A model generated the notes under the pieces. It ran no database searches, was not told where the DNA came from, and was given only the letters and a program-made list of their open reading frames with translations. Of a DNA stretch of 64,000 nt, positions 3,401 through 50,294 are shown one piece after another; the first letter of the stretch is position 1; each line of letters opens with the position of its first letter. The DNA is taken from contig CM120640.1 in NCBI GenBank assembly GCA_051362555.1, forward strand, positions 14,384,001-14,448,000, written 5' to 3'. Source of the stretch: Lingula anatina. Its lineage: Eukaryota > Animalia > Brachiopoda. The position numbers and the translations under genes were made by a program.

Positions 3401-4032
3401 GGACACTGCTGTTTATATATGCCAATTGTAAACCAAACATGGCTCCCACGCACTAATAGTTGCCGATCTAGAAAACTCAGCTGTTACATACTCAATTCAT
3501 TACAACATCGTTATCAAAGGTCATGATGTATGTAATATGGTCCAAGTTATCCAAATATTACAGCAACTTGTGGAGAACATCGAGAATTGGCAAGTTATAG
3601 TGAGGTTTTCGCCTAGCAACTTCTGGTTTTCGCGGTTTTCGTATTTTCGTAGGACCGTCAACCAGTGGCCGGTGGCAGTGGCGATGCCTTAATGATTTGG
3701 GAAGTTCTCAATTTAGCGAGTGGTATCATGAAAACAAAAGGCATCAAAAAACTGATAGAGTTGGCCGAAATGACAAGTGTTTTCTTCAAACCATTGATCA
3801 CTTACCTGCAATGGACCATCATAGAAAAACAGATTAATTTGCACTTGTTTGCACGTGTTGTAGTAACTTGACCTAGATAGCATGCGCACCGGCGTTTTAT
3901 TTCGTAGAATCTTTTTCGCACGAAGGAAGGAAAAGAAAATTTGCCTTCCTGTTGTTAGTCAGTGAGGTATGTCTTTTCAACAGGAGTGTCTTTCCTCTCC
4001 ATGACTGAGTTTGTCAAGTGAAGTCACTTGTT

Positions 4033-5079
4033 ATGGAAGGTTTCAGGGCTGCTAGAACCATTCTTTCATTGACACGATCTTCTTATGTTGTTTGGCGACA
4101 GGTGCTAAGGAAAGAATCGACGATTTCTCCTCAGACTAATTTGATTCAGGATTTATCATATTTGAAACAGGAACCAAAATTAGCAACAGCGTCAGAGATA
4201 GTGAAACGATATGACACTTTTTTATTCGATGTTGATGGAGTTTTGTGGAACACAGATGAGTCACCCATACCTGGAATAACAGACTCTCTGGAAAAACTTA
4301 AAGAACTGGACAAGACGGTGATACTTGTAACCAACAACAGCATAAACAGTAGAAAATATTTGCAGAAAGTTATTAAAAGACGACTTGGATATGACTTTCC
4401 GAAAGAAAATATATTCACTGTGGCATATACAGCAGCTTTGTTCGTGAAGGAAATTGCAAATGTACAGGGAACGGTGTACTTGATGGGCAGTCCCGGCATG
4501 GCATCAGAAATGGATGATTTGGAGATAAACCATGTTGGTTTTGGTCCCGACCCAGATCCACCTTCTATGGACCCCCAAGAAATTCTTCAAAGACCCCTCC
4601 ATGAAAATATTGGTGCTGTTGTCGTAGGGATGGACCCATATATCGGTTTCAATAAGTTCTCCAAGGCTGCTAGTTATCTGTATAACCCCAATTGTTATTA
4701 CGTAGCTACAAACTGTTTTGAAGGAGGGTTGCATGTAGGTCAAGGAAAAGTGATGCCAATAACAGGCACTTTTGTTACTGCTCTCAACTTTCTATCAAAA
4801 AGAGAACCTGTTGTTATAGGAAAGCCACACAAATATATGCTAGAGTGCATAGAAACCAAGCACTTTATCCAGAGGGGTCGGACCATCATGATAGGAGACA
4901 ATTTGAGAGCTGATATAGGTTTTGCCAAGACAGTAGGAATTGATTCTTTATTAGTTCTTAGTGGAGCTAATAATCTGCAAGATGTGCAGGAAAATCTAGA
5001 AAGTGATTGCCCCTCCAAAAAAAATCTTATTCCTGATTATTATGCCATTTCTCTTGCTGATTTATGCAAATCATTGTAA
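4033..5079 (+). CDS. HAD-IIA phosphatase, phosphoglycolate/glycerol-3-phosphate/pyridoxal phosphatase (PGP/PDXP)-like; single coding exon
   Basis: Motif I FDVDGVLW, motif II VTNNS, GKP, motif IV MIGDNLRADIGFA and LVLSG. First in-frame ATG is at 4033 (ORF track starts at GTG 4018). Confidence 0.92.
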   Translation: MEGFRAARTILSLTRSSYVVWRQVLRKESTISPQTNLIQDLSYLKQEPKLATASEIVKRYDTFLFDVDGVLWNTDESPIPGITDSLEKLKELDKTVILVTNNSINSRKYLQKVIKRRLGYDFPKENIFTVAYTAALFVKEIANVQGTVYLMGSPGMASEMDDLEINHVGFGPDPDPPSMDPQEILQRPLHENIGAVVVGMDPYIGFNKFSKAASYLYNPNCYYVATNCFEGGLHVGQGKVMPITGTFVTALNFLSKREPVVIGKPHKYMLECIETKHFIQRGRTIMIGDNLRADIGFAKTVGIDSLLVLSGANNLQDVQENLESDCPSKKNLIPDYYAISLADLCKSL

Positions 5080-7770: not shown

Positions 7771-8825
7771 TTATGTACCAAATACATACTCTAAGTAGAA
7801 TATGTACTCTACATTGGTTTGCATAAATCGGCAAAGGATAGCATAATAATTAGGAACAAGATTTCTTTTGATGGGACAATCACTTTTTATGTTTTCCTGC
7901 ACATCTCTCAGATTATTGGCCCCACTTAGAACTAATAAAGAATCAATTCCCACTGTCTTGGCAAAACCTATATCAGCTCTCAAGTTATCCCCTACCATCA
8001 AGGTGCGCTCTTTTTGGATACAGTGCTTGGTTTCTATACACTCTAGCATATATTTGTGTGGCTTTCCTACAACAACAGGTTCTCTCTTAGATAGAAAGTT
8101 GAGAGCAGTAACAAATGTTTCTGTTATTGGCATGACTCTGCCTTTACCTAAATGCAACCCTCCTTCTAAACAGTTTGTAGCCACGTAATAACAGTCTGGG
8201 TTGGTCAGATAACTTGCGGCTTTGAATAATTTGTTGAAATCGAAATGCGGATCCATCCCTACAACAACCGCGCCAACATTTTCGCGAAGGGGTCTTTGTA
8301 CATGTAGAAGTTGGTTTGGGTCTGTGCAAATAACATCAGGGTCGGGTCCTAAACAGGCATGATCAATACTCATTTCATCCATTTCTGCTGCCATGCCCGG
8401 ACTGCCCATCAAGTACACCGTCCCTTTCAAATTTCCGATTTCTTTTATGTACTTTGCCGCCGCGTGCCACTCGGAGTGAATATGTTTTCTTTCGGAAAGT
8501 CAAACCCAATTCGCCTTATAATAGTTTTTCACAGGTGATCTCTGTCGTTTCTACTGTTATGTGTCACAAGTATCACCGTCTTGTTTAGTTGTTTTAGTTT
8601 TTCTAGGAACTCCATTATTCCAAAGAGGGCTGACTGGTTCGTTTTCCACAAAACTCCATTCATGTCAAGCAAGAAAGTGTTATACTGCTTCACAATGTCT
8701 GTCGGAATCGCCAACTTTGGGTCTGATTTTGACAAACTCGACACGACTGAGATGTTTTTCTTGCATTGTCGAAAAACGCTCAAGAGTCGTGTGATCAGGG
8801 AATTATATCGTGATCGAGCTAACAT
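7771..8825 (-). pseudogene. Decayed paralog of the PGP/PDXP-like phosphatase
   Basis: Colinear with 4033-5079. In-frame TGA at 8529-8531, frameshift near 8465, probable C-terminal frameshift near 7835, motif I changed DVDG>DMNG. Confidence 0.85.
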
Positions 8826-12405: not shown

Positions 12406-15400
12406 TCATGTTACCAGCTTTTTAATTCTTTCTATCTCCACCTGAGTATTGAGTCTGATTTTCTTTTCTTCATCTACTTCATTCATAAGATCTAGGATCC
12501 TCTTATTGGAAGTGTTACGGAATTCCATGAATTGAGCTTTCAGTTCATTTAAATCTTTCTTTAAATCATTGTACTTTTCAATACTGACAGTGGATTCTTT
12601 CATTTCTTTCATCTCTTGGCGCAGTTCCTGAATTAACTTGGCATCGTCTGTGCTGCTCCTCGGACTGGTCACTTCTGAAACAGATCAAATCCACAATAGT
12701 GACAATCAGTGACAACTATATACACATTTTTTAAATAAAGTAAAATCATGCTAACATTATATACTGTGACTTCTTAAAAAATCAATTAAAATCCCATGAT
12801 TTTATTCGTAGCTGGACATATTCTTTATATTTTCTCTAAGATATAATAAGAGAGGGTTTTGTTACCTTTTTCTTTCTCTTCGTCTTGATGTTTTACTGTT
12901 GGTGGTGGTGGTCTCTTTACATGGGGCAGTGCTTTTTCAGGCAACTTTTCAGGCTCCTGCAGAACAAGGAGACCAATGCATCAGAGTTGGGCTCTACCTA
13001 CAGCCTTTTTAAAGTGTTATTTCATTTTTGTCAATAGCTTAGACAGCCATCAAAAGTAACAGGATGAAAAAATGTTAATATTCTAATATCTACTAGTTTG
13101 CAGACTGTAAAAATATAATAACCCCATGGACTAGAAAGTGCTGCCCAGTTTTAGTGCAAATGTTAATAAAAGTCTACTTCTAGTACATACAGAAGGCTAC
13201 AACAAATGCTACTAACACATTTTCAATCTGAGTACAATAAACCATAACAATGTCTTTGCAATAACACTGCATTCCAGCCACAAAGCTACACTTCACATTA
13301 CAAACACAATAGCCGTTCAGCCTCTGGAATCCTGACTGCCATGCCCAAAGTTAGCACACTATCAGTTACCTTATGATGGTGATGTAGTTTACGGTGTGAT
13401 TCATGTTGTACGTGTGTGGTGCCGTCACTAGTGTCCCTGATGGAGGCACGCTTCACCTCCTTCACCCACGAGGGTTCAAGAGGCTCCACCAACTCCTGCC
13501 ACAGAGAGAGAAACAAAGCCGACATGCATCAGTGCCCTAACAGTGCGTTTAGACAGAGTGGTCGGAAACTGTATGGACCAAGGGAGAACACAATTTTGGT
13601 GGTTGAAAACTGTATGGACTAAGGTAGAACCCAATTCTGATGGTTGGAAATGTTAGACCACGGTAGAACACAATTTTGAAGGTTGAAAAATGTCGACCAA
13701 GAAAAACATGATTTTGGTGATTTTATCCAGTTCTTGAAATGGCTGGGACAACAAAATTTTTCAACTCTTAGAAAATGACCTGTACAAAGCAATGGGATTC
13801 AAAGCATTTGTATTATTGGCAAAAAAGCACTATTGTTGAGATTTGATAAGGTACTGCAGTCAAGTTATGACAAGCAGACAGCAGTAGCTACACCAAATCC
13901 ACTGCACAGATTGTTTCAAAATTGGAATGGGCTCAGTTCAAACTACTCTGTATAACTATGCAGTAAGAATATCACTGAGACTTGCTACAAAAGCCACCAT
14001 TCTAGAACTGCACTGACTTAAGCATGTGCACATGCTGGATAGGTCTTTTCATGACATTAAGTTTAGTATTACAAGTGTATATATATATATCATAGCATGC
14101 AATTTAACTTTTGTGGTTAAAACTAGTGTTACACTCATATCATAAATAATAAATTGTATAGGAAAAGCTACATATAGGCCTACCCAATAAACCATTACAA
14201 TACATTTTATTAATATAACAGTGGTTGTTGTGTCTAAGATAAAAGAATATTCTTAAATAAATGTTAAGTGTGCGATGAATGTTTCATTGAACTTAATGTT
14301 ACTGCATCAATTCAAACCGTTTTAGTTGCCTGCAAACATGTATTAATATGCCAAGCATATATTATAAGGTAAGCAAAGCCTTCTCACATGTACAGATGGT
14401 TAATATTGTGCATATATAAGAACTGGCTTTACCATGGCATCTCAAGTGCAATGCAGAAATCCAACTCCACACAGACACACATTTATTTTAAAGAAATCAC
14501 TTACTGTGTCTTTATGAAGAATTGCAGAAGATGGTGGCCTTTTGCTGGCATTCTTTGGCCGATTCACAGTCAGGTGAGACAAAGTTTCTGTGGTTTCTAT
14601 GGTATCAAGATGATTGACATCTGAAAAAGAACATGTAGTTTCACAAAGATGATCCATTTTTTAATATGTGTATAAAAGAATGCTACAAACATGACTCTAT
14701 GAATAAAAAAAAATGCAGAAATCAACAGATGCCTTTAACTCTGGTTACATCAATTTATCTATTGCCTACCTGGTTTATTGTTGACAGAGGTCTTACTGTC
14801 AACAGTATCCTTGCCCTCATTGACTTTAGTCTCTACTGGTTTTGGCTTGGGTAGGTCTGTAGGCTTGGCAGGCACTGGTTTCTTACCAATAGGGGGAGGA
14901 AGAGGCTTCTTGGCAGGCAGAGCTGGGGCTGGTTTCTCATTATCTGCTATGAAATATATGAGAGGCTGTCAAAGCATTTTTTAATGATTCAATAACACAA
15001 GGATATAAAAAGGAATTCATGCACACCCAAATGACATTTCAACCAGGCTAATGGTGCATGTCATTGAGTTCAAAGCTTCCTTCTTTTTTCTAGCAGCATG
15101 TATGTGGTATTCAACTAAAATGTCCAGAAATAAAATAACATGAAGAGTAATGCATGCTTTAATATACATAACATGTTGAGTCAAATGAATATAATACATA
15201 TGCATGTATTCAAACACCTAGAACTTAGAGACAATATCACGGTTCCCTAAATTTGTGAAGAAAAAATCCCTCGTCACAAGTAGCTATAGGTAGAACATAG
15301 GTTACATACCCTTTTTAAATTTGGTTTCTGGCTTGGTAACTTCGGGTGGTGGTGGTTTTTCTGGAGGTTTAATATGATGGTGATGATGTTGGTTGACTTC

Positions 15401-18400
15401 TTTCAAAGGTTTTGTTTGTGGAGCAGGCACGGCTGGGACAGCTGGCATAGGCGGAGGCGGCTTTCTGGGTTTAGGCTGAAATGTGAATAAGACAATTAAA
15501 ATGTAGGTTTAAAATTTCTCAATAAGGGTCTCTGCCAAAAGGATTTCAAGATCATTCAATCTGTACCTCAATTAAAGGCATATAGCAAAATTATTACCTT
15601 ACTTTATGATACTGCAAAAGGTATTTTCAACATGAAAAGCTTTTAGCGATTACTCTTTCTGAAAATCATTATTACACATTAGAAATTGCATGTTGAAAAT
15701 TTAACAGTCAAATGGAAAACTGACTACTATCTACAATATCTGTTCTTTCAAAATATAACAATTTTTTCATTAAAAATCAGCTTTCAACATGCAAAACTGC
15801 ATAGTGAACAACTGATCATTAACACTCAAAACTACGTTAAGTCAGGTTCTATCTACCGCAGAGTGTGGTTCAGCATTGCGTGCAGCAACTTTTGGTTGAG
15901 ACAGTACCTCTTCTGGCGGTAATAGTTCAACAAAGTTGTCAGGAAACACCCCTATCTTTCCATCTAATTCCCCCTTCCACCAGCCACCATCTTCCAGTTC
16001 CTTGTCCAATATGGTGATCACATCTCCCTCTGCCAAGTTCAGCTCATCATCGTTCTCTGCGGAGTACGAGTAGAGGACACGGGCACGTTCAACTGAAAGG
16101 GAAAAGTGCTTGTAAATATAACTATGTCTGTGTTTCAATATTGGCTTGTAAACTTGTTATTTGTTGTTGTTAGTCAATAACATTTTCTGTCACTTAACAT
16201 ATTCATTCTTTTGGAGATTATTTCATAACAAACTTCTGAAACAAAAAGTCACTTGGCTTATTCATTAAGAGGCACTGCCACCCTATTCTATAGTCCTTCA
16301 TTAGCATTGTTTGCATATGGTTAAACAATACTGCAAAATATATATTGTCAAGCTCCATTCCATTCACATACTGCGCTATGTAATATAATATTTCTAATAT
16401 ATCTTAATAGTTTCAGACTAAAAAGAAAGCTTTAGTATAGCAAAACAGAGGGCTTACTTTCAAGGAAAACAAAAATAAAGAACATTTTTTGGAAAATATA
16501 TACATATATTCATTCAGCATGCAACAAAATTCATTTTCAACATAAACAACATCAGACTGGTTACATAAAAACAAGTTGCAACATGTAAAATGAGAGCAAT
16601 TAGTAAAAAAAGACTTCTGTCAACTTTGTGATGTGACTCACCATGCTGCATTGTGAATAGTAAATCCAATCCTTGATATTCTTTAGTGTCAACTGTTCTT
16701 ACTTCACCAAGATTCTTTATATGGTACAATATTATCTAACATATCTAACATCTGACACATAGTATTAAATGGTACATGAATCCTCTCTGTGGTAAAGTTC
16801 AAAACAAGAATAAGTGGTAAATTGTCTTTGCAACAAAGTTCAAAACAAGACCAAAGTTCTCAAAAACAAGTCTCTCAATAATACGTCAACACCAATTCTT
16901 GAAAAGCTAAAAACATCAGTTCACAAAACTTGGAACAAAACCTTGAACAGCAAAGTCAATTAATAAACAAACAAGGTCAGAGTTGTGTATTAAAGCTCAA
17001 TGATTGAGCTGTCAGTCCTTGGGACAACAAATGTAGGAAGTCTTTCCTCGCACTCCTCTCTGCTGCTTGGAAACAACACAACCTCATTTGCCAAAGGGCT
17101 GGGAGGTAATACTGGTGCTGATAGTTCATAAGCACTTTCCTCATGACTCTTGGCCTGATTACAATGGGGATCAAGCTCATGATGATGCAATCCATGTTTT
17201 GGGAGAAATGGGGTCTTACTTTTGTTTCTTACTTCATCCTGACACTTGGACAGATTTTCCCAATGTTGGAATAATTCTTGAAATTCTAATGACTTTGTTA
17301 AAACTACAGAAGGACTGCAGATTTCACCGGGCTCCAGAGATCTGTCGTCTTCACTGCCATCCCCTCCAGCACTGCCATCATCTGGGAAATCATCCTCTTC
17401 CTCCTTAGTCCAAGACTCTTGGCATACCTCATTCCTTGTAGGTTCAGCAGAACACGCATCTGTCTTGGTAGAACCATCTCTTGATATAACATCTTTACCA
17501 TTTCCCAAAAATGTACTGTTCTTCTGAGGTCCATCCACAGTCAAGTGCAGGCTACTGTCCTCTGAGTAATAACTTGGACAGAGACTGATGGAAGGTTCGA
17601 CAGATTCACTCAAGATAGCATTGACTACCTGGGTTTGGCGTCTTGCCCACGGAGCTGGTTCAATCATTCTTGGGCCTAATGGTTCAGGGCTTTGAAATCT
17701 GGCAACATGTAAAGACTCTTTGGTGAAAGGGGCAGCTTCATTTCTAGGTTGATCACAATGACCAAAATTATAGAAATGAGTTTCAACTGTTGCTCTATCA
17801 TCTTTGCCTTTCACATCTTTGAAATCTTCTTTGTGTGAGAAAGCATCAAAACTGCCATTCAGGACATCTATTGAAGCCACTGATAGGTCGCTTGGTTTGG
17901 GCTGCTTATTATCTGGAAAGGCCTGAGACACTGGTATCTGTTTTAGGTGGGTAATCTTTGGGGATATGTGACATGAATCAGTTTGTTCTGTATTACTAGG
18001 CTTGAGAGAAGTGATTGTCAAGTCTTGGGAATGCAGAGAACTGTGATCAGACAACATTTCTTCACTCTGAAGATCATCACTTTTGTACTCACTGGCATCT
18101 GGTAATTTGGAATAGTGTGGCATCTCTGTATCAATGGCTGACCTGTTCCCTAAGTTGTCATGCTTGAAACACATTCCTAGCCTAATCTTTCCATGTTTAG
18201 AGACATCTCGTTCTGAAACATCATACTTCCTCCTGTGTGTTGCTGACATACTAACCTTGGTTTCTCTAAAGCTCGCTCTCAGTCTCTTGAATATATTCTT
18301 TTTCTTTTTTTCTTTTTGTTCCATGAAGGGATCAAGAGGATTATAAAAGACCTGCTGGCTTCTACTTCTGTAGCTCTGCACACTAGTCGTAGGACATGGG

Positions 18401-21400
18401 TTTTGATGATTAGGGTCTTCAGTGCTGGTAGCATATGTAGCTGGTGTGGGCAACCTGGTTTCAATTGGTTTATGTATCAGAAAAGGTTCAGGATAGCTCT
18501 TTCTGCAGACTGGTTTTCCATCTTGATATATTTTGTACTTGTTGAGAGTGTTTTTCAGGAACGGTGAGATTCTTCCACTCCTCTGAAGGGTCTCAATATA
18601 AGTTGGTACATACGGCTCTTCTTCACTTTCTTCTTTCCTCGACACATGTGCAGGACCAGATACGGGTTTGTTCAGAGTAATATCCTGATCAGGAGAATCC
18701 TTGGGACTTTTTTCCTGGTCATTGTGCAAGTGTCTGGCCACACCATGCTGTTCAGAAGGGACCATCTCATTGTGGTTGACCCCAGACAATGGCAAAGTTA
18801 TAATGGGATTTAAGCTGGGTTTCTTCCTCTCAATAGCCTCCTGTTTGTTTATGGTATCCAAATTGTTGCCAGGGAAATTAGAATCATGCTCCCTTTTCTC
18901 TAGATTTTTTATTTTTTTGTCAGGTGATGAGAAAAAAGATCTAATTTTACTTCCAATGCCAAGGGTCACTGACCTGCCTATTGAGGCATTACTGTTGTTG
19001 TTGCTGTTGCTGCCAGGATCTTCAGCTTTGTCAAGACTGCTAATAATATTTTCATCTCCCCTACACCCAATACCCACATTTCTGTAACTCTCGACTTTGT
19101 CCCTTGTCATCATTCCAAACTTCTGTTCCCTTAACAATTCAAGACTATCTGTAATATTTTCTGCTTTGATGGGACCCGCTTCTTTCTTATGGTTGGTAAT
19201 TGGCTGCAGAGTTTCTTGAAAATCACAGTTTATGGGATCACTGTTAATGTATTCATCTTTAACAGAAATACTGACCGGTCTGTGCCAGTCTGGTCCCATC
19301 CACTCCTCAATGTCACTTTCCTGGTGTACATGTTCACAACCCAAGGTAGTCTCATAGTGATGATCCAGGTTCCCTGGTTCAAGGCTCCTAAATACATGAG
19401 CCTGGGTTGAAAGGACAAAACACGCTCCCTGCTGATAATAAGGAAGGGACTGAGAGGTGTTTCTATGTTTGCGATCATGGTTCTCTCTACCATAATGCTG
19501 CGATGAACTGTCTTGCCTGGGAGAAAGGTGTTGTGGTGAAGGACATCTTCCATGCCGGCATAAATCAGTCTTGGGCAAGCTACTAGCTGGAACAATCACA
19601 TCCCCAATGCGATACCTCATCTCGGGGCTGTGTTTGCTGTCGACATCATTCTCAGAGTTACTTCCAGCATTTCTGTCTTTCTTTCTGTTGCCACTATTAG
19701 GTGTGCTGTGAGAAAATACATGCTTTGCAGATCCTTTAGAAAGGAGTCTGGATCTTCGTCTTCTGAAAGTAAGTTTAGGGGGTGGTGTTTCTCTTGCATG
19801 AGCCAATGCACTTTCATCTAAATGGTCTTCAGTATGATCTTCCTCAGTATGGGAAAGGTTTAAATTGTCTGCCAGCTTAGACAGTACAGATGACAAAGAG
19901 AAACCATGCTTTGTTTGACTTGATTCATCAAAACTGATACTCTCCTGAACTTCTTGACCTTGACTCTGATGTAATAAGTTTCGCGTGTCAGAATTTGATA
20001 TTGACCTGCGGGGTGGTTTTGGTGGTGCGGGAGATTTTCTTTTCTCAACATCATTACTTTCAGTCACAGAGTCTAAAACTGCTGGGCTGTAATTAGACTT
20101 GAATTTTGATATTGCTTCAACACTCAAGTAACTATCATTTTCTTCCGCTGCATTTAAAGCTGAGCTACTACTGGGAATACTACAGTCATGCTTCAAGTCT
20201 ACCTCTGTTGCTGTTCTAGTTTCTTGACAGCAGGTTGGAGATAGAGGGTGAGTGTCTATACGAAGCAGAGAGACAAAGGAAAGATGTAGAAGAATAAGAC
20301 CATGCTGAATTAATACATGCCAGAAAATAAACATTTGCTACAGGGTCTCCTGGTTTGTAGTGCAGGAAAGTAGAACAAGTTTGTGGCAGCTTTATAAGAT
20401 ACTTTCAATCAAAAGACTGAATGCAGAATAGTGGTCAATATTATACTATGAGTAAAGCTACACAAATAAGAAAACATACAAATGTGAACACAATATGCCA
20501 TGTCATCTATGAGTCATTCTATCCTTCTATGAAGATTCTGACAGAGTGAAATCCTATCCTCATTTCTTTGTTATCATTATCATAAGATGAGATCAGCCAC
20601 ACTAGGTTATGCTTCCTTGTAAACTTACTTGGCTTAACATCCCGTGGGGGCAGCGAGGGCGGTCTCTCGTGAGGCACAGGAGGTGGTGCCTTGTTACGTA
20701 TTGAGCTCTGGAAAGCAACAGACTTAAAAATAAGAATTTCTTCTTTTAAATCACAAATCTGATATCAGATGAAAATTGGGATTTTGTAGAATGTACAGTC
20801 CTACTTCATCTGTCAGACATTCATTGTTTTCATCCAATGTTCACCTCAAATACTAAAACTGTGCTCTAAACTACTTGGTTTCAATCACATTTTGTCTTTG
20901 ATAACAGTATATAACCGGACAGTGCTCTGACAGTGTGGACCTCTTCCAAGACAAAATGTATATTATAGATTTTTTTAATTATCTGAAAGTAGACTGGTAT
21001 TCAGCTGAAATTGTCACTTGGCAGCAGAAATAAAAAAATCATACAATTACATAAGATTCAGACTGTTGCAGTCATAGCCTTACCCTGTGATCATCATTGT
21101 GACTATTCTTCTTAGAAACTGCATGGTGCTCTTTAAGAGGTTCCATGGGGATTTCTTTGGCTGGTTCTTTAGGGAGTTCTGCAGGCTTCTTCCCCAGAGC
21201 CCCCGTAGACCGCAATTTAATGGGACCACCACTGAATATGTTCCCAAGACCTACACCTTTCACCTTCTTGCCTGTGATCTCTGGAGGGGGCTCCTCAGCA
21301 GGCTTGTCTTCTGACATAGCTATGGTATCATTTGCTGCAAAAAACATAGTAATATCACCTAAAAGTGCAAGGAAGGCAGTTCCCAATCAGGATTTCTCAC

Positions 21401-24400
21401 AACAGCACTTTGGCCCAAAAAATTTGTCTAAACTTTAAGGCCCTAATTTTGGACTGCTTGGAACCAAAATAAATCAGTAGCAAGACAAATGAATGAAACA
21501 CTTTACGCGTTTTATAACAGAAAGACACAGATAAAACTTGAAGAAACTACTATGGGTTCATCTTAGACTAAAGCGCATCAAATGATGCTCTGACCAAAAT
21601 TTTTAAACAATTTTAGGCCAATTTTCATTTCAATTTTCATTCTTTGATTTTTTTCTTGCTTTAATTAATGTTTGGTTAATACCTGATTCACCAGATTTTT
21701 CATCTTCATGATCTGCAGCTGCCTTAAGATCCTCGATCTTGCCACCATCTAAAAGTTCTACAAAGTTGGAGGGAAATACTCCATTTTTGCCATTTACAGT
21801 TCCCTGCCACCAGCCTTCCTCTTCCTGAAATAAAATAATGGGACATTTTATACATCTTTTTTTTTTTTGTTAACTAAATATATGAACACACCTTTACAAG
21901 CAAGTGAAGGTGATAACTAAAATTCCTTGATTGTGAAGTCGTCATCCTTCCTTATGACTGGCATATATGTAAATATACCATAATGTCTAAATTAAAACTC
22001 ATGCAAATCAGATTTTATGCCGTGAGTGGCTAACTAAAAGATCCTTTTAAAATGTGCTATCGAATCTTACTAGTACTTCCTTATCATCATTTGTACCTCT
22101 TTAACTGTTTCCATGATACTTCCTGTTAAAAGCTTTATATTTGCAATTTGTGAAGTTATGACAAGCTATTTTATAACTGTTAAAACTGCCTCTTACAACT
22201 GTGAAATAAAAAACAACTTCTTCTTATTAAATTATTAACCTCTTTTAAAACTTCTACGATGTCCCCTGCCTCTAGCTTGAGTTCATCATCATTCTCAGGG
22301 GTATAACTGAATGTTGCTTTAGCACGGAGTTTTCTATTATTGGTGCCTAAAAAAAAAAAGACATCATTCAAATATCTTATCAGATAAATTTTTACTGCAG
22401 CTTTGATACTTTATTTGAACAATACAATTTTATTGATATATTAGATCTAAAGATATCTTACACAATATGGGTCACATTCAAACAATGCATTTGATAACAT
22501 GAAAATAAAAAGGTCATATAAATCATATAAACCCCACACTTCAAATTTAACAAAGCTTGACTATTCACCAAAAAATGTCTCCATTTCAAAGCTTTTTAAG
22601 TTAAATCAAAAAAAAAAAAAAATCCACAACTTCCATGGGGACCATCTCTTTGTTACTAGTTTCTACCAACATCTTTAATTTCTAACATATCCACTAAAAT
22701 TTTAAACCCAAAATCTTGCACAGAAATAATAAAAACATTTCATACATGCAAGTCATTTCTGATCTGGCAATATTTCATGTGCTACATTGTGCTATGTATC
22801 TCATTCAACATTCATCACTCATGCTAAAAATAACTTTTCTCTTCTGAGCCTGACCTCATCACAAGCCACAGACACCTGGCAGCCTCAGGCAGAGGATATC
22901 ATGATCTAATGCCAAAGATGACAATATGGATGTGTGGCCCATGCCATCCTCATTACACCACCATTCCCCCCCAAGACAAAAGTGATCCTTAGCATTAATA
23001 AGTGCCTTGCTCTGTAGCTTGTACAAGAATTGCCCAAAGTCACTGTCTACATGATTAATCATACATAACATAAGAAGTCCCTCTTACAGGCAATATATCA
23101 CTGAATATATCAGAATTTGGTTGTGGACTAACCTAAAACGGGTTTAATGCTTTCTTATCAGTTCAGAAATGTTGACTGAAATCTATCCTGCTGGGTTTAT
23201 GAATGGGTTAAGCAATTACCTTTTGCTTTAAGTCAGATTGTAATTGACACAGTGTGAACACATGAAACTGGTTCTCAAGTAATTCAAGAATATCAAAATT
23301 ATACATCAAGCAACACAACCAATGTCAATGACAGTCCTTGAGTGGATATTAATGTTGATAAAAAGATGCAAGTCACTTACTTTTCCTCCTCATTTCTGCA
23401 AAGGCCTTTGGCTGTGGTGCTCCTGCATGTATTGCATGGTCTCCCAGTCTGTCTTTTAATGCTGCAATATGGTGTCCTTTTCCATGAGATTCATCCTTCC
23501 TTTTCTCTACTTCTTTATGGGATTCTGACTTTATATGTTCCTTCATTGGTTCTTTTTGGGGTTCTTTATGTTTAACTACTTCCTAGGGTGACAAAGCAAT
23601 ACAATGAGTTGTTGGTTTGAGAACATTTTAAAGGAAATATTTAATCCCATGAGCCTGATAAAATCTCCTGAAAATCTGTCTCATGGTAACTGACTTCTGT
23701 ATACAAATAAGTACTAGTAAGTAATTTTTATGGCAGCCTAGCTGTCATTAAAGTCATTACCTTTAACAGAACTCTTGTTAAAATTGAGTAATGCTAAATA
23801 TTGTGTGGTACTCCTTGGCCTTCAAAAGAATTCTGACTATTACACTACCCAATTGTACAAACACAAAAGGCATAACTGAATTCCAGAATTTTAATTTTAT
23901 ATTTACATTGTAGATGTTGATGCCCTTAATATATGTTCACATCAACCACGCATTGTATTTGCATCACTCACAGCTGTCAAAATGCCATACTGTTGAATAT
24001 TCAGTACCAAACTTTATCTTTAACTTTATGGGTGCTTCTAATCTAGTTGTAAATGTGGTCCTTCATGTTTTATTAATTTGCTAAAGTCCTTTAAATTAAA
24101 TCTTGTTGGAAACAACCACATACTTCAAGATATCCTACAGTATCCATTTTTAAAAAGAAATCTTATTTACTTGCAAAAATCATTAAAAAGAAAGTGAAAT
24201 CAAACACATACTTCAAGATCAAGTCTACAAGATCTTTTATGTAAAATAGCCTCCAGATCTTTTATCTAGAAAAGCCTATCAACTATTCACAAGTAATATT
24301 GTGACGTCTACAAGATTTTTTTTATCTAGAAAAGCCTATCAACTATTTAAAGTAATTTGTGACAACTGCTTTTGTTACATAAGGGCAGTGTGAGACATTG

Positions 24401-26760
24401 CAGAACATGGTCAAGACTGTTACTGCTAACAGAGTGACATCCATTTCCACCAAAGTGAGCCAAAGATAACCCTAGTAGAATGACCCAGTTATCATTATAC
24501 ACAAACCTACCTTTAAGTTAATGGATGGCATGGCAATTTACCTATCATCCCTTGAATCTATGACCTTCTGCTTATATCTTGAAATCACCATTCACTGGAG
24601 CTACTACTATAGTACTGTTAACGTGGAAGTGTGAATTCCCAAAGAAAAGAGTGCCTGTACTACATCCCAGCCACTCTTCAATAAATTCCATATGCATCTA
24701 AATTATCAGCACCCGCCCCACAATAAAAGTAGTCCCTTAAACAAATAATAACATCAGTTTCCAGTTTGGGTACATTTGCTACCCACACTGAAGGCACATG
24801 CCACTACCTATAAACATTTCTAACAGCACAATGAGAAGCTTTCAAAATACAATGACCATATGGAAAGGCAACTGAAAGCATCAAGACTCATATTCCTATC
24901 TATAGTGTAACCATATATACCTTGACAAAATTATCAGGAAACATCCCTTTCTTTCCATTGAGCTCTCCTTCCCACCATCCACCTTCTTGTTTCACAACAT
25001 TTGTAATCACTTCTCCGACTTTCAGTGTTAATTCATCATCTTGCTCTGCAGTGTATTCAAATTCTACTATACACTCCACTGAAAGAGAAAAAATTGACAA
25101 TCTATTTGACAAATCACCATTACAAGAATTTTCCCTTTAAAAAAGAAAAAAAATCCATAAAAAATAGAAATAACTCATCACATTACTACATTCAGTCACT
25201 ATTTTAATATAAATCTTGAAAACCATGCTGTGCACTGAAAATGAATATCCACTAATACGAAGTAAATTCTCATTAGCAATAGAACTAACTGATCAATGCA
25301 ATTTTTCAATCTTCTAAAAGAAAAAAGGGGGGAAGAAAGTAAATGTAAACAGTTTTATATTATATAACTTATGTTAAAACATATCCCATATAACGACTGA
25401 AGACATGCAACCACAAAAGAATGACTCATCAATCACGATATGATAGAGTATGGTGGGGCAAAAAATAGGGAAGACACGAAGACTCTGACCAGGGTATTTT
25501 AGAATACCACAGACAAAGCTGGAAAAACTGCTAGCTACACTGACTTGTTAAAACTATGTAAAATATGATCTAGATCTAAAAAAAAAAAAATTGAATACAT
25601 TTTATCTGTATCTTGATTTTCATTTACATACCAACATTTCAGATCAGCAAGGGCCTTTTTTCTTTGAACAGCCAAATATACTAAAAACTTTTAATATATC
25701 TAATTTCTCATTACAACTTACATGCAGATTATAACACATTATATCTAATCAAAGTATTTTAAATAAATCTAATCTATACAGGCATATTACAGTTACTAAG
25801 AAAGGTAAAACAATGATAATGTATTTAATAATTTAACATATATATGTAATAATTCATAACCTTCCTAAAACTGTTGGTTAACACATATGTGCAAAAATAG
25901 TTTAACCAAAATATGTTAAAAATGGGACATTTTTTCTAGATTATAACTGTAAATCAATGAAATTTGCTCTCTTAATTTTAAAATGACCATACTGCTCTAA
26001 AAGCATATGCATCCTATTTATAAGTGAATAATTTTTATTTAATTACCTAAATAAGATATTAGGAATCCATTTAGATACTCAGGTTTATATTTTGTATTAA
26101 AAAATTGTCTAAACAATGTATCCATATTAAAGCAGAATTTCCACAAATATAAAATGATTTCATGCCATATCTAGAGGTCTGCAATCAATAACAACATACT
26201 TCTTTGCAGGCAAATATACAGCAAATATACAGGCAATTTAATTTTTAAAAATTGCCTATTGGTAACTTAGTCAACAGTTTTGCAGGCCATAATAAGCATT
26301 CAAATACAATATTTCATGAGTTTAGTTTGTGAAAACAAAAAAGAAAAGACTATCACTAACTGTGCAACATGCTGACCAGCATTAAACCAATCACTAAAAA
26401 TACTTTACAAATCATTAAATATTGTGGCTGCTTTTCTAAAAAAGCCCCCCCAATCTTAATGACTTTAATTTTAAATCTTGTACTATGGAACTTAGTAAAT
26501 TGGGGTATAACGTGCTATTGTCACAATACAACTCATCTGTCAAGGTGACACGTGGTTTATACTATAACAAACATCAACAGTATGTATCTGTAAACCGATA
26601 TTAGAATTATAGTAATTTACTATCACTAAACGTATCTTCAACCACTTTGATAAGTCTCAAAACAATTTAAACAAATTAAACATTATTTCACACAAGCTTG
26701 CGTATATTCCATACAATAAAGTGTTAACATTTACAGTATTAACATTTACTACTCACCCAT
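12406..26760 (-). CDS. SH3KBP1: CIN85/CD2AP family adaptor (three SH3 domains, proline-rich region, CPI motif, C-terminal coiled coil), ~689 aa
   Basis: Exons 26757-26760, 24921-25078 (SH3A), 23381-23582, 22240-22346 + 21683-21824 (SH3B), 21084-21334, 20629-20707, 15908-16092 (SH3C), 15310-15475, 14770-14943, 14505-14620 ([10 protein letters not shown]), 13370-13495, 12866-12956, 12406-12674 (coiled coil). All GT-AG and phase-consistent, total 2070 nt. Probably co-ortholog of SH3KBP1 and CD2AP. Confidence 0.9.
16990..20255 (-). CDS. Giant (~1088-codon) probable alternative terminal exon of the CIN85/CD2AP gene; low-complexity, probably disordered Ser/His/Pro/Glu-rich protein
   Basis: 3.3-kb ORF on the host strand. 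Polypyrimidine tract + TAG acceptor (tctctctgcttcgtatag|AC) at 20255 is phase 1, matching the phase-1 donor at 20629. Confidence 0.72.
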
Positions 26761-27103
26761 GATGCTTTATTGGCCCTATATGGACCTGTCGCATTGAAAT
26801 TATCTTTAGTTTCTGCCCTTCCGTCTTCTAGTGACTCAATATGGCGGAAGTGATCACGTGACATGTGACTAGCACCGACACATTTTTCTGTGACATTATG
26901 GCAAACGATACACTTATAATAATAAATTGCTTCAAATTAATAATTTTTGTAATTTTACAAATACAAAACGCAATTTCAGGATGAGGGTACAAAATAGGAC
27001 AATATTGAGTATATTTTGTGCGAGTCTATTATCATATCCAACTTCCTGTTCGATTTTACATACGCATGTACGAGAAAGTTCTGAAGTTATTTCTCAGTTG
27101 ATC
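26761..27103. promoter_or_regulatory. Bidirectional promoter between CIN85/CD2AP and CHORDC1
   Basis: Divergent ATGs ~343 bp apart. Clustered TGACTCA (26832), AATATGGCGG YY1-like overlapping CGGAAGTG ETS-like (~26838-26852) and TCACGTGAC E-box (~26854-26862). Locally CpG-richer. Confidence 0.65.
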
Positions 27104-30100
27104 ATGGTTTTATTAACGTGTTACAACAAGGGTTGTGGACAGAAATTCGACCCTGCGACCAACAGCGATGGTAAGACTCGGTGATGTATTTATTTATATT
27201 TTTATTGAGGAATGTTTTGGCTGTCGGCTTTTCCTATGCTTGTTTTGCTTTCATCAACAAAGCGTGTGGTGTGTTTGGTTCTAGTTTGGGGGTTTGATGT
27301 TGGTTTTTGACATTTATTGAACTGGCATGAATATCCCTTTAAATTATTAATGATCCAGTAAATGTTCTGAGTATGTAGATTGCCGTTATTCACACCTGCG
27401 GGATTAAAAGAACTCATATTCGTTTATTTGGTATAAACAACTCAGTGCTTTAAAATTAATCTTACCTAGGCCATTATGCACCAACGTCACTTATATTCTT
27501 TTCATGACGCCACAGAATCAGAAAAATTGGGGATATGAGGCAATCATCACTTTTTATAGAGGTTTAACAAGTGATATTTTATAGTTTTTAAGCATACATT
27601 TTCACCTCTCCATCTTCACTTAGATTTTATGTAATTAATTTAATGAAGACCAGTTCTAGCGCGATGGTTTCTGTCACGCTCGGCTGTCACCTTGATTGGA
27701 AAGTAAACGATTGTCGTAAAATCGCTAAATGATATTAAAACCGGGTGCATAAACTTGAAAACCACCTACAACAACCTTGGACTACCACATTAATCCAATA
27801 CAATGCAAAAATAAACTATAACAAGTGGTTAAAGCCTTCAAACCGAATGTCGTAAAGTCCCCATATACCTCCATAGAGACAATAAAATAGAATGAGCTTC
27901 TGAAACAAACCTGATCCAGTTCCAACAGAATAATCGAAATAAAATACTGCTGGGCATCGGAGCGGCCTAAAACTTGGCACGCTCACCGCTAATACTGCAG
28001 GCTACATCATCCAGTCGCTCGTTTGTAAATTCCGTGCATGGCATACGCACAATCAAACCGTAAAAAACAAATTCTCGGGGTGTCGTTGGCTAGGTCCACG
28101 CAACAATCCAATTCAGGAAATGACGTAACCGCAGAGGTCGCATTGTCCAAAGGCATGGCTTCTTTTTCGTAATGGTAGGTTAGAGTGGACCTGGCCAACG
28201 ACACCCCGAGAATTTGTTTTTTACGGTTTGATTGTGCGTATGCCATGCACGGAATTTACAAACGAGCGACGGAATGATGTAGCCTGCAGTATTAGCGGTA
28301 AGCGTGCCAAGTTTTAGGCCGCTCCGATGCCCGGCAGTATTTTATTTCGATTATTCTGTTGGAACTGGATCAGGTTTGTTTCAGAAGCTCATTCTATTTT
28401 ATTGTCTCTATGGAGGTATATGGGGACTTTACGACATTCGGTTTGAAGGCTTTAACCACTTGTTATAGTTTATTTTTGCATTGTATTGGATTAATGTGGT
28501 AGTCCAAGGTTGTTGTAGGTGGTTTTCAAGTTTATGCACCCGGTTTTAATATCATTTAGCGATTTTACGACAATCGTTTACTATCCAATCAAGGTGACAG
28601 CCGAGCGTGGTTTCTGTAAGTTTTTAAAGCATTGTTAAATTAGGTGATGTAAGGAATAGATCAACTTTTATATTTCATCAATGTCAGTCTAGGCAGCCAT
28701 TGATACAGGAGGCAGGCAGGTGGTGTCACATTCAAAGAATCAAATTCATTCAGTTTCTATTTAGAAAATATTTTGGATATTTTAACTGAGGTCTGTAGAT
28801 GGCATCTATAAAATGATTGGTAGTACACAAACTTATCCCCAAATTACACAGAAAACCTCTAAGGTTTTAAAGGAAAGTGTTTATTACACATGCATATGGA
28901 TGGTTCCCACTGAGCAGGTATGCCATATATGGTGTGTGTAATATAACATCTAAGGTCATAGGCATTAGGAAAATGGATTACAATGTTATCATGTTCCTAT
29001 TAATGATAAGAAATGTATGACTCAGAATTTTTATTGCCTTATCCCATTGACAGAGGAGGACGGTTTTGTAAACTATGTAGTGAAGTTGACTAGATTTATT
29101 TATTTATTTTACTTGAGATGTGTACTTATGATGCTTCCAGAGGCTTGTGTCCACCACCCAGGGGTGCCAGTGTTCCATGATGCCCTGAAAGGCTGGTCTT
29201 GCTGCAGGAAAAGAAGTACAGACTTTACAGAGTTTCTCAACATCCCAGTAAGTGATAAATGCCTATGATTAAAATAACTAATATTGTATGTGTTGAAAAC
29301 GGTTTTAATATTTTTTAAAGGTCATAACAGAAGGGCTTTTTTTACTATTATTATGTTTTTTTCTTTTAACATTTAACATTTATAAATCAAAACTATAAAA
29401 CATTGTCTTACATTGATTGGTTTTATTTGCAATTAGGGGTGTTCAAAAGGTCCACACAGTAATGAAAAACCCCCTGAGCCAGAAAAGAACACAGAAGAAG
29501 ATCCAGCATATAAAGAGGAGGTAAGTGTTTTCAAAATACTCAGACATTACATAATAAAACTCAATGTATTGTATATTCAAAAATCCAAATATTGCAGGCA
29601 CAGACATTTTCTTATACATACAGTAATTAATCTATGATATTGGAGCCAAATAAAGGTATTCCAACTGCTTTTCCTAACTACTGCATTAAATTTTGGGGAA
29701 AAAACTTTTATGGAAGCATAACATGAGATGAAATATTACTTTTACCTCAGAGGGCGGAGTTTGAAATTATAGTGTGTCCATTTAGGCTGTTAATGCTCAA
29801 ATTTTTATCAAATTACTGGGGTTGACTACACTACTGATTGATGTTAGTCCAAAAGTCAAAAAGTTTATAGGAATGAATACCCAAGAAATTTTTTGCTCAA
29901 ATAATAGCTATAACCAAAAAAAAAAATGAATATTAAGTTAGAATAAAAAACCTTAAAAAAGAGAAGCTATTAGTGGTATGTAGATTGAATCGGTGTTTAA
30001 TACCTACGCTGGCCTGTCTTAACCACAAGCAATCCCTTTTTTAAATGACTGTGACAATATCTAACATTTTGATGTTCATGGACAGACAGGAGTAATTTTA

Positions 30101-46787: not shown

Positions 46788-49700
46788 ATGGCAGAAGGAG
46801 GCAAAAAGAGCACGTCAGATGTGCGAGTGGTGATCTGTGGGGGAGGCATTATTGGAGTTTCCATTGCCTACTATCTGGCTGAGAAGGGAGTAGCAGCCAC
46901 CATCATTGAGAGGAGATCAGTAGCATGTGCGGCCTCTGGAAGAGCTGGAGGATTTTTGGCAAAGAATTGGTGTGATCATAATGAGGTAGGAAACTATTTG
47001 AATGAAGAGTTCTTTTTCAGTCATTTTCAGCTTTGGATTGGCAATAAGTTACTAAACACAGTTTAAATATATATAAAATATCAGTCTAAATCATATGCAG
47101 TAAAATAATTTATTTTTCTCATTGATTCATCATTTTATTGTGATTGTGTAGTTTTTACCTGCATACTGTTAAAAAATTTCTTCTACTTAAAAAGCTCAGT
47201 TCAAAAATTGGTTGGCACGTTTCTGTTGTGCATTCTTTAGCTGTTTCCAGGTTAAAGTCCAGTTTAAATTTAGAAAATTGACTTGGGACTAAAGCATTGT
47301 AAAATTATGTGGATGGTTATCAATCAATAAAATCTCAAACATTAGGATTTTTTAAAAAAAATTTTCGCAAAATGAGTTCTCCTAGTTTATTCTGTGCATA
47401 TAGATTTTTATTTACATTTAGAGAAAGAAGAAATGCATTCCAAATAAATTTGTAGTTGTGGTCTGAAAATTGACACACACTTTGAGGCTGCAGGTAATTT
47501 GTGACCAGGGGTGTATCTCAGGCCACTTCTATATAAGTTCTTTGGAGTGGAACTTTTATAAAAGTAGGAAGGGGTGATACGGCGGTCACTATTTATCATT
47601 TTCTGATTTATGTTTAAGCAATGTACAAGTGTTTATGTTTGTTGTGGCTAAAGTTCAGTAAAGGAAAAAATGGGAAATGGGAAATTTTACAAACTTTGTT
47701 TACAAAATTCACTAAATCTAGTTGGTAAGATGAAATGCTACAGTCACAGATCGAATCTTGGTGTATTTGCAAGCAGAAATGGGTTGATCACCAGTCTCCA
47801 GCTAAAAACTCACAGTAGAGACAGAGCTTTGACAAGAAATAACAAAGACAGCAAATTTCACTGCACTGAAAAAAAATAGTTAACGAAAATAGAATGCACT
47901 GCACTCACTGTCTGGAATAAATTTCATCAAAGTTTTTTATTTTTGCGGGGGAGGGGGGATCTGTTTTTTCTTATTGTCTAAAAGAGAAGGGTTCACTTAC
48001 TGTATTTTCATCCTACCCAATGAAGATTGAAGGAGCATAATTCATTGGTGCATTTCATTTATATTTACAAAAAGGTCATTTACAAAGATGAAGAGAGAAC
48101 TACCCATTATAATATGTAGTTTTCCACATGTGCAGTGCATATGATGACAGAAAAATAATATTGTAAATTAAGACTTTTTTAAATTCAGATATCTTGTTAG
48201 ATAATAACTCACTTTATTTCCTCAAATGAAAGAGAACACAGGCAGTGCGTTGAAAACTTCGATAAACTGATAAATTGCATGAATTTGTGTAAAAAAAGAC
48301 TTTGTTCTCTAGCATTGTCTGAGTATACATATACATGTATGTGTAGCATGATAGTCCATGTCTTGATTGATCACACATTCTGTGGGGAATGAGTATTGAT
48401 TGTAATCTCTGTTCTTCCCCCCAAGAGACATTTATTAAGTTAACATTGGTGAAGATCAACAACTCTGACCAAATGCGTATTATGTATACTACTTAAATGA
48501 GTCCAAGATGTTAATATAATACTGATGAACAGATAATTGGATCTTTTCCTGACATAGAAATTACTTCAATATGTATTGTTATGTATGCACTACCAGACAA
48601 ACGCATCAAAATCATAGCATTTGCTGTGGTACTCATTGACCACTATCTATCTTAGTTTGTTCTGAATTCAGTTTTGTAAATTTTTGTCTTTCATTTCTTA
48701 AACTACTATGTTGTTGGCTTAAGACAAGTCTAAAAAGTACTAAGAAAAATTGAGATATGTAGAAAATAACTTTAAAATAATATTTTCCTGAATAAAGTAT
48801 TTTTTTCTCAGTTTTCAAAATAACTTTTGACTCCCATTTCCAGCTCGGCCATTTGGCAAGAAAAAGCTTTGAGATGCACAAGGAGCTGGCAGAGAAGTTT
48901 GGTGCTAGTAAGATAGACTACAGGCTGCTGGACACCTTTCAAGTGGACTCCCTGGAGGGATTCCATAGTGACTCGGATAGTGGCAAGCCAGACTGGATAG
49001 ATGGGTGTGTCACCAGTGTGGCCACGTTGGGGAATACCTCCACTACAGCACAGGTGAATATATGTGCGTGCATGTGTGTATGCATGGGTGGTTGCTGACA
49101 GGCTGGTAGTTGTGATTTTACACTGAACTACTTGTATATAATCATGATCCAAACTACTTTTAATGGGTTCAAGATCCAAATGATGCTCCCTTGAGTTGAG
49201 AGTTGATCATGCCATGTCACCTTTAATTAGCAATATCATATCCACTTATGTCTAATTGCAATGAACATATGATTGATTCTTTTCTGTCTGCATAAAGATT
49301 TAATGTTAAAGTATATTTATTGAAAATTCCCCTTACATCCCTGATGATCTTGGTTCATGTTACATGCAGCATGGGGCATTCTCACCATAGGCAAACTTTA
49401 TTTTCTTATTATAATGAAACATGCTACATTATTTACACAATTCTCTTCAATTTCCATGGAAACTGATAAAAGCTACTAGACTGAATTTGCTACTGACATG
49501 GGATCGAACTTTATGCAGAAATGTTTTCATCTTATATCTGTGATAGATATTTCTTTACTCCCTAGGTTCATCCCTACAAATTAACACATGCTATGTTAGA
49601 AGAGGCCCAAAAGAAGGGAGTAAAATTGATCAAGGGAGTTGTTGAAGGAATCAAGTCAACACATGATAAACGCCCTAAAGTCCAGGGGGTAAAAATTGCT

Positions 49701-50294
49701 GACCAAGAAGAGCCTATCCCATGTGACATTGTTGTCATAGCGATGGGACCATGGTCCCATATGGCCAGTCAGTGGTTTGCTCGGTTGCCAAAGGTGAAAG
49801 GCCATAGAGCCCACAGCATAATGGTGAAACCTCCTACCCCCTTCCCAGCACACGCCTGCTTCATAGAGCATCGCTTGAAAAACGGGATCACTAGATCACC
49901 CGAGATTTATTGTCGTCCTGATGGGGAAGTGTACATCTGTGGTTTAGGCGATGACCCTGAGCTTCCTGATAACCCAGAAGATGTTAAACCAGACCCGGAG
50001 ACTGGAGAAAAACTGCTAGGGATAGTGGGTGAGATTTCGACGAAACTGGGCCAAGCTGATATCCAGAGGAAGTCTGCATGCTTCTATCCAGTGTCACCAG
50101 ATGGCACCCCACTCATTGGGAAGATTACGACTGCTGAGGGAGCATACATTGCTACTGGACATAGTTGCTGGGGTATACTAAATGCTCCTGTTACTGGTGC
50201 TGCCATGGCAGAGTTGATTGTTGATGGGCAGGCATCAATTGTTGATCTAAAAGAGTTTAGCCCAAAGAGGTTTTGGGAAATGGGATGGTATTAG
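46788..50294 (+). CDS. FAD-dependent oxidoreductase, DAO family (yeast TDA3/BTN3-like), ~378 aa
   Basis: GGGIIG Rossmann motif, ACAASGRAGGFLA, TAQVHP, PEIYCRPDGEVYICG, ATGHSCWGILNAP. Exons 46788-46985, 48844-49053, 49566-50294, all phase 0. Confidence 0.88.

What the first reader, a model, noticed from the sequence alone, without database searches (positions are those of the whole stretch)
16990..20255. Giant ~3.3-kb alternative terminal exon hidden in the CIN85/CD2AP gene would rewire the adaptor
Seen: a 1114-codon ORF on the host strand, inside the intron between the exon ending ...PPRDVKP (donor at 20629, phase 1) and the SH3C exon (acceptor at 16092, phase 1). The ORF has no ATG at its annotated start and begins in a pyrimidine-rich intron-like stretch, but has a polypyrimidine+TAG acceptor at 20255 that is also phase 1. 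Splicing there gives 943+3266 nt, a ~1402-aa isoform: SH3A, SH3B and ~1088 aa of low-complexity tail ending at its own stop. It would lack SH3C, the proline-rich region, the CPI motif and the oligomerising coiled coil. Established: those modules define CIN85/CD2AP function. Inference: an isoform switch from an oligomeric actin/endocytic adaptor to a monomeric long-tailed scaffold. I know of no such isoform in the family.
Basis: partly seen in the sequence, partly recalled or inferred. Interest (0 to 1): 0.85.

Follow-up and report, generated by a model that had tools for sequence, protein, structure and literature searches.

The report
Hidden giant exon splits CIN85 adaptor
An intron of the lamp-shell (Lingula) CIN85 adaptor gene holds an unannotated, weakly transcribed 1,100-codon reading frame, and RNA from just behind its stop codon is spliced onward to the next exon; it likely lets the gene make a front half with a long, probably disordered tail and a separate back half, but the join to the front half was not seen and no relative was found.

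Summary
The ORF is real: 1,115 open codons (minus strand, 20337-16990) in intron 7 of Lingula SH3KBP1/CIN85, and splicing 20629->20255 would give 1,402 aa in frame. Three details are wrong or unsupported: the ORF has an ATG (20334), the tail is predicted disordered but not low-complexity, and 'terminal exon' is not supported. RNA reads show sense coverage at about 3% of the main mRNA in three runs. One run shows a new GT-AG joint, 16642->16092 (6 reads, 2 starts), 348 nt behind the stop, which puts Met-Gln-His in frame with SH3C. No AATAAA/ATTAAA lies downstream. The 20629->20255 joint was not listed in 6 runs, but under one read per run was expected, so this is undecided; a few unspliced reads lie upstream of 20255. 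No homologue, domain or transposon similarity was found, and conservation could not be tested. Best reading: a minor 3.6-kb stop-containing exon that likely yields an SH3A-SH3B-tail protein and whose 3' end doubles as the start of an SH3C-first isoform (Rukm-like). A nested transcript from its own promoter is the main rival. New variant of a known kind; moderate interest.

The parts
26757..26760 (-). exon 1, coding part (ATG + G, donor GTGAGT)
   Evidence: joint 26757->25078 in RNA
24921..25078 (-). exon 2, SH3A
23381..23582 (-). exon 3, A-B linker
22240..22346 (-). exon 4, SH3B first part
21683..21824 (-). exon 5, SH3B second part
21084..21334 (-). exon 6, B-C linker; 99% identical to Lingula anatina SH3KBP1
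20629..20707 (-). exon 7 (ends PPRDVKP, phase-1 donor at 20629)
20269..20450 (-). intron stretch upstream of the proposed acceptor that carries a few unspliced reads (X3 sense, X7); none seen in 20451-20628
20332..20334 (-). in-frame ATG of the ORF; pyrimidine at -3 in the window and in the read allele
20256..20290 (-). pyrimidine tract + TAG, candidate acceptor (first exon base 20255, phase 1); use not seen
16990..20255 (-). giant ORF after the acceptor: 1,088 aa, predicted disordered, Ser/Glu/Pro-rich, one PxxxPR motif (PPKPPR), one predicted helix near the C-terminus; GC 42% against 32% in introns
16652..16989 (-). non-coding stretch between the ORF stop and the second ATG; covered by sense reads in X1 and X3; no AATAAA/ATTAAA
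16642..16651 (-). ATG-CAG-CAT-G then donor GTGAGT: Met-Gln-His leader in frame with SH3C; predicted 378-aa SH3C-first protein
   Evidence: joint 16642->16092, 6 reads, 2 starts, run X3
15857..16092 (-). exon 8, SH3C (two donors, 15908 and 15857)
12406..15475 (-). exons 9-14: proline-rich region, CPI-like motif, coiled coil, stop at 12406

Best explanation
Intron 7 of the Lingula CIN85 gene holds a weakly transcribed 1,088-codon frame, and RNA from 348 nt behind its stop is spliced to the SH3C exon; this is likely one 3.6-kb exon (20255-16642) that is likely entered from exon 7 and would give a 1,402-aa SH3A-SH3B protein with a predicted disordered tail. Steps: (1) shown - open frame, sense RNA at about 3% of the main mRNA, joint 16642->16092 in one run; (2) inferred - entry at the phase-1 acceptor 20255; (3) inferred - translation stops at 16990, so the product keeps the two N-terminal SH3 domains, loses SH3C, the proline-rich region, CPI motif and coiled coil, and would act as a non-oligomerising, actin-uncoupled SH3 adaptor whose tail offers short motifs (a PxxxPR site that could bind its own SH3s, basic kinase sites, one helix); (4) inferred - the early stop and long 3' UTR make the mRNA prone to nonsense-mediated decay, which would explain its low level; (5) inferred - the ATG at 16651 makes the exon's 3' end double as a first exon for a 378-aa SH3C-first protein, so the intron can yield the two halves of the adaptor separately.
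For: ORF far beyond chance and GC 42% vs 32%, falling at the stop. Sense depth over 16629-20268 of 0.85 (X1) and 0.88 (X3), and 0.80 over 16627-20525 (X2), against 0.17 and 0.08 in five intron-only bins of X1 and X2 (about 22 vs 3 fragments, P about 0.001). Depth is zero in 16265-16628 in X1 and X3, just past the donor. Joint share by starts (2 of 49, 4%) matches the ORF's depth share (3.3%). The 16642 donor is the only 1 of 12 GTRAG sites in 13 intron stretches with an in-frame ATG within four codons and a purine at -3, and has the same form as exon 1. The 27 codons upstream of 20255 are pyrimidine-rich like an acceptor; 6 of 39 frames upstream of real acceptors stay open that long, so the upstream ATG is not unusual, and it has a pyrimidine at -3. 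Fourteen oyster proteins from 5 species start with a short Met leader at the same point before SH3C.
Against: Joint 20629->20255 not listed in 6 of 6 runs laid; in X3 all 20 and in X9 all 12 reads at the end of exon 7 are accounted for by the canonical joint, though only 0.6-0.8 reads per run were expected. Unspliced reads upstream of 20255 in X3 (3 reads, 2 starts) and X7 (3 reads, 1 start). The acceptor scores low. The 16642 joint rests on 2 starts in 1 of 6 runs, and no read links it to the ORF. X4, X7 and X9 show no enrichment over intron background. No homologue among 1.84 billion representatives and no database isoform with the tail. No protein-level evidence. The intron control used a 95% likeness cut-off and may be under-counted.
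Confidence: 0.4

Rival explanations
1. Nested or alternative-promoter transcript: RNA starts near 20400-20450, uses ATG 20334 and makes a 1,114-aa protein with no SH3 domain and a hydrophobic leader, then ends near the stop or splices on through 16642.
For: Reads upstream of 20255 in X3 (sense) and X7, none in 20451-20628 in four runs; in-frame ATG; low acceptor score; leader hydropathy 1.67 over 19 aa, the highest in the protein.
Against: Pyrimidine at -3 of the ATG and allele differences right beside it; the hydrophobic leader is what a pyrimidine tract encodes and has three His; a phase-matched pyrimidine tract + TAG sits 27 codons in; only about 3 molecules support the 5' edge.
Confidence: 0.25
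2. One reading: a true alternative last exon (20255 to a poly(A) site between 16990 and about 16680), with the 16642 joint belonging to a separate short first exon for the SH3C-first isoform.
For: Same frame and phase evidence; the shorter side of the 16642 joint is at most 34 nt, which fits a short first exon; five ATGs lie between the stop and 16651, which would hinder use of 16651 on a long RNA; TATAAA variant at 16721.
Against: No AATAAA/ATTAAA; no pile-up of molecule ends listed (table 6); coverage in X3 runs through consecutive bins from 17356 to the donor; entry joint unseen.
Confidence: 0.17
3. Non-functional relic: a recent insertion (decayed element or orphan retrocopy) still open by youth; the reads are pre-mRNA, and only the small ATG exon at 16642 is functional.
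For: No homologue; very low RNA; in X7, 2 of 4 reads in two ORF stretches fell under 95% likeness (vs 15); the one listed coding change is non-synonymous (I432D).
Against: No Pfam, PHROG or PDB match; no terminal repeats; no second copy in the window; host-strand orientation, phase match, codon-position bias and CpG depletion like the host (0.21 vs 0.18-0.31); flanks empty of reads in X1 and X3 (4.4 fragments expected, P 0.012).
Confidence: 0.13

Closest known systems
Giant ankyrin long exons of bilaterians (PMC5135030, passages read)
   Same: One multi-kb ORF exon in a scaffold gene, no detectable homology between distant species, Ser/Glu-rich composition.
   Different: Shorter (3.3 kb vs mean 8.1 kb); S+E 21% and SETDKP 47% against about 25% and >55%; carries a stop 348 nt before its donor; inclusion and conserved position not shown.
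Rukm, the short mammalian Ruk/CIN85 isoform (PMC2196191, passages read)
   Same: [quoted passage not shown] That the lost domains are A and B and that it has its own promoter is recalled (Buchman et al. 2002 seen only as a reference-list entry).
   Different: Here the start exon sits at the tail end of a 3.3-kb ORF; no such ORF is known to me in the mammalian locus.
Drosophila cindr isoforms PA-PD (PMC2290846, passages read)
   Same: Long, medium and short N-terminally truncated isoforms of the invertebrate orthologue.
   Different: The passages describe forms that keep the C-terminal half; none replaces it with a new tail. Fig. S1 with the isoform maps was not seen.
Hybrid first/internal exons (bioRxiv 10.1101/2021.05.27.446076, abstract read)
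   Same: One donor used by an exon that is internal in one transcript and first in another.
   Different: Described in human transcriptomes; here inferred from 6 reads, and the internal form would be 3.6 kb with its own stop.

Membership tests
CIN85/CD2AP (host gene) | three SH3 domains, proline-rich region, C-terminal coiled coil | tested here: met
   RNA-verified 14-exon model, 689 aa; 99% match to Lingula SH3KBP1; family features as in PMC12135550 and PMC6703184 passages
CIN85/CD2AP (host gene) | capping-protein-interaction motif | tested here: met
   recalled pattern L.H.T..RP found at residue 503 of the canonical model, absent from the 1,402-aa model
Alternative last exon | spliced to an upstream exon | tested here: inconclusive
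   20629->20255 not listed in 6 runs; chance that any of X1-X3 would reach the 3-read threshold was 0.11
Alternative last exon | own poly(A) site, no onward splicing | tested here: not met
   no AATAAA/ATTAAA; joint 16642->16092. A non-canonical site is not excluded
Giant-ankyrin-type long exon | single ORF of thousands of bases inside a scaffold gene | tested here: met
Giant-ankyrin-type long exon | S+E about 25%, S/E/T/D/K/P > 55% | tested here: not met
   21.0% and 47.4%; above the 32.8% codon share given in PMC5135030
Giant-ankyrin-type long exon | long exon at the same position in other species | not testable with these tools
Rukm-type SH3C-first isoform | Met-containing exon spliced in frame to the SH3C exon | tested here: met
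   (6 reads, 2 starts, 1 of 6 runs)
Rukm-type SH3C-first isoform | own promoter / capped 5' end | not testable with these tools
   needs CAGE or 5'-RACE
Transposon or endogenous virus | transposase, RT, integrase or capsid similarity | tested here: not met
Transposon or endogenous virus | terminal repeats, multiple copies | tested here: inconclusive
   no long repeat at the ends, single copy in the window; genome-wide copy number not testable

The most novel reading that the evidence does not exclude
One mRNA (exons 1-7, the 3.6-kb exon, exons 8-14) is bicistronic and splits CIN85 into two complementary proteins, an SH3A-SH3B head with a 1,088-aa disordered tail and an SH3C-proline-CPI-coiled-coil back half started at ATG 16651; the same intron is a conserved split point in lophotrochozoans, which would explain the SH3C-first gene models in oysters.
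Probability: 0.1. Interest if true: 0.75.

Novelty: new variant of a known kind. Interest (0 to 1): 0.42.

Why it matters
N-terminally shortened CIN85 isoforms are known; a form that keeps SH3A-B and swaps the whole actin-binding, oligomerising half for a 1,100-aa tail did not turn up in the five CIN85/cindr paper searches or in the database isoforms seen. If real it gives a natural uncoupling of cargo binding from actin and oligomerisation and a second case, beside ankyrin, of a giant exon that annotation misses. As it stands it is a minor RNA in one brachiopod with no shown conservation, so the reach is limited.

Tried and rejected
Homologue searches for the tail found nothing: word-based search, 613-1,952 aa; phmmer on 1.84 billion representatives; exact look-up; Pfam, PHROGs, PDB; metagenome and viral contigs. 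The ESM Atlas gave no answer. Stop read-through from the ORF into the Met-Gln-His leader was rejected: different frame, stops between. An in-frame cassette reading (tail followed by SH3C in one protein) was considered: GT sites in phase 1 exist at 19662 and 17220 but no joint from them was listed. The strict CIN85 ligand Px[PA]xPR is absent from the tail; only PxxxPR and the looser recalled Px[PA]xxR match. Single-sequence AlphaFold2 gave mean pLDDT 34, so no fold search was run; low confidence without an alignment is not proof of disorder. dN/dS from reads was not possible: one coding difference listed. Three look-ups of earlier scan notes gave nothing on this locus.
Full report
Host gene. 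Exon 6 matches Lingula anatina SH3KBP1 at 99%; the cluster holds six database isoforms of 660-707 aa, none with the ORF. RNA joints define a 14-exon minus-strand gene that translates to 689 aa with three SH3 domains, a proline-rich region, a CPI-like motif (pattern recalled) and a C-terminal coiled-coil region.

The ORF. It runs stop to stop from 20337 to 16990, 1,115 codons, the longest of 7 ORFs of 150 aa or more in the window. Shuffles of the same bases gave at most 223 codons in 2,000 trials; the other five frames have 41-121 stops. GC is 42% against 32% in 12 other introns and drops at the stop. Exons 1-7 (943 nt) plus 20255-16990 give 1,402 aa with one stop. The tail has negative FoldIndex in 11 of 11 windows and 1,032 of 1,087 residues under pLDDT 50 in a single-sequence model, with one helix of pLDDT 60-75 at model residues 991-1012. 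It is less low-complexity than canonical CIN85. It carries PPKPPR (PxxxPR) 78 residues after the junction but not the strict Px[PAV]xPR given in PMC12730246 (passages).

RNA. Six of nine listed raw-read runs were laid; 6-30% of each was read. The canonical 20629->16092 joint has 22, 28, 16, 3, 9 and 12 reads in X1, X2, X3, X4, X7, X9. In the three stranded poly(A) runs of one study, sense depth over the ORF is 0.85, 0.80 and 0.88 (about 11 fragments each), 3.3% of exon-7 depth, and above five intron-only bins (0.17, 0.08; P about 0.001, with the caveat that the control used the 95% cut-off). X4 has none; X7 (0.28) and X9 (0.08) are not above their own intron background. The joint 20629->20255 was not listed. 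In one search two joints were not shown, but X2 and X4 have zero depth in 19969-20525, and one search showed all joints for the other four runs. Only 0.6-0.8 reads per run were expected against a listing threshold of 3, so this is undecided. Against it, X3 has 3 sense reads (2 starts) and X7 3 reads (1 start) upstream of 20255, none of them beyond 20450.

The new joint. X3 shows 16642->16092, GT-AG, 6 reads from 2 starts, shorter side up to 34 nt, flagged 'between: not known'. X1 and X3 have reads in 16629-16992 and none in 16265-16628. The exon ends ATG CAG CAT G, giving MQH-VERARV in frame with SH3C and a 378-aa product. Of 12 GTRAG sites in 13 intron stretches only this one has an in-frame ATG within four codons, with A at -3. 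By read starts the joint is 2 of 49 entries into SH3C in X1-X3, close to the ORF's depth share. No AATAAA or ATTAAA lies between the stop and SH3C. So the one boundary that RNA shows is a donor 348 nt behind the stop, not a poly(A) site. No read links this joint to the ORF itself.

Relatives. The tail has no match in any library tried. The exon-6 search (147-2,000 aa, 110 candidates) found no long isoform. Among 221 fetched family proteins of 300 aa or more, 176 have three SH3 cores with a B-C spacing of 78-197 aa, and 16 have one; 14 of these 16 come from 5 oyster species and start with a short Met leader just before SH3C, with look-alike leaders in four species. They are automated models filed as genes of their own, so they may be split or partial duplicate genes, not isoforms.

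Mechanism. I read the region as one minor 3,614-nt exon, 20255-16642 (0.40). Exit at 16642 is seen; entry at 20255 is inferred from the phase-matched pyrimidine tract + TAG, from the finding that 6 of 39 frames upstream of real acceptors stay open for 27 codons or more, and from the poor context of ATG 20334. The product would keep SH3A-B and lose the parts that bind capping protein and oligomerise (roles from PMC12135550 and PMC12019163 passages), so it would bind cargo without clustering it or tying it to actin (inference). The early stop and long 3' UTR would expose the mRNA to nonsense-mediated decay (recalled knowledge; the rules in brachiopods are not known to me). The ATG at 16651 would start the back half, most simply from a promoter just upstream, since five ATGs lie between the stop and it. 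The two spliced readings give the same 1,402-aa protein (about 0.55 together).

Comparison. It works like the long exons of giant ankyrins (PMC5135030, passages) in size class, rapid divergence and Ser/Glu bias, but fails the composition figures and has a stop before its donor. The SH3C-first form resembles Rukm (PMC2196191, passages) and the shorter cindr forms (PMC2290846, passages; its supplement figure of isoforms was not seen). Shared use of one donor by a first and an internal exon is described in human (10.1101/2021.05.27.446076, abstract). Searches listed no CIN85/CD2AP isoform with a giant replacement tail; the library lacks most subscription papers. PMC2702278 and PMC13398906 (passages) added nothing on isoform structure beyond a 56-kDa form.

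Verdict. Observation partly confirmed; interpretation partly supported; new variant of a known kind; interest 0.42.

Noticed in passing
window 27675-28609: Near-perfect inverted repeat: 449-nt arms, 96% complementary, 37-nt spacer, probably a fold-back element in an intron of the plus-strand neighbour.
   Followed up: partly
window 4009-5079 (+) and 7828-8777 (-): Two intronless HAD-family hydrolase copies facing each other; the plus copy is open (356 aa), the minus copy changes frame near 8475-8490 (54-72% identity): pseudogene or assembly error.
   Followed up: partly
window 13370-13495 (-): Exon 12 is included in X1/X2 and almost wholly skipped in X4/X7; database isoform X7 lacks it.
   Followed up: partly
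window 15857/15908 and 14943/14946 (-): Alternative donor adding 17 aa after SH3C, and a 3-nt alternative acceptor, both in RNA.
   Followed up: partly
window 26760-27170: A plus-strand gene starts near 27050, head to head with the CIN85 gene within about 300 nt: likely a bidirectional promoter.
   Followed up: no
proteins P0006, P0150, P0214, P0237, P0106: Several database isoforms lack SH3A only (Lingula X8, Lineus, Haliotis, ticks), so N-terminal truncation is common in the family.
   Followed up: no
window 49566-50294 (+): ORF with an FAD-dependent oxidoreductase (DAO) match.
   Followed up: no
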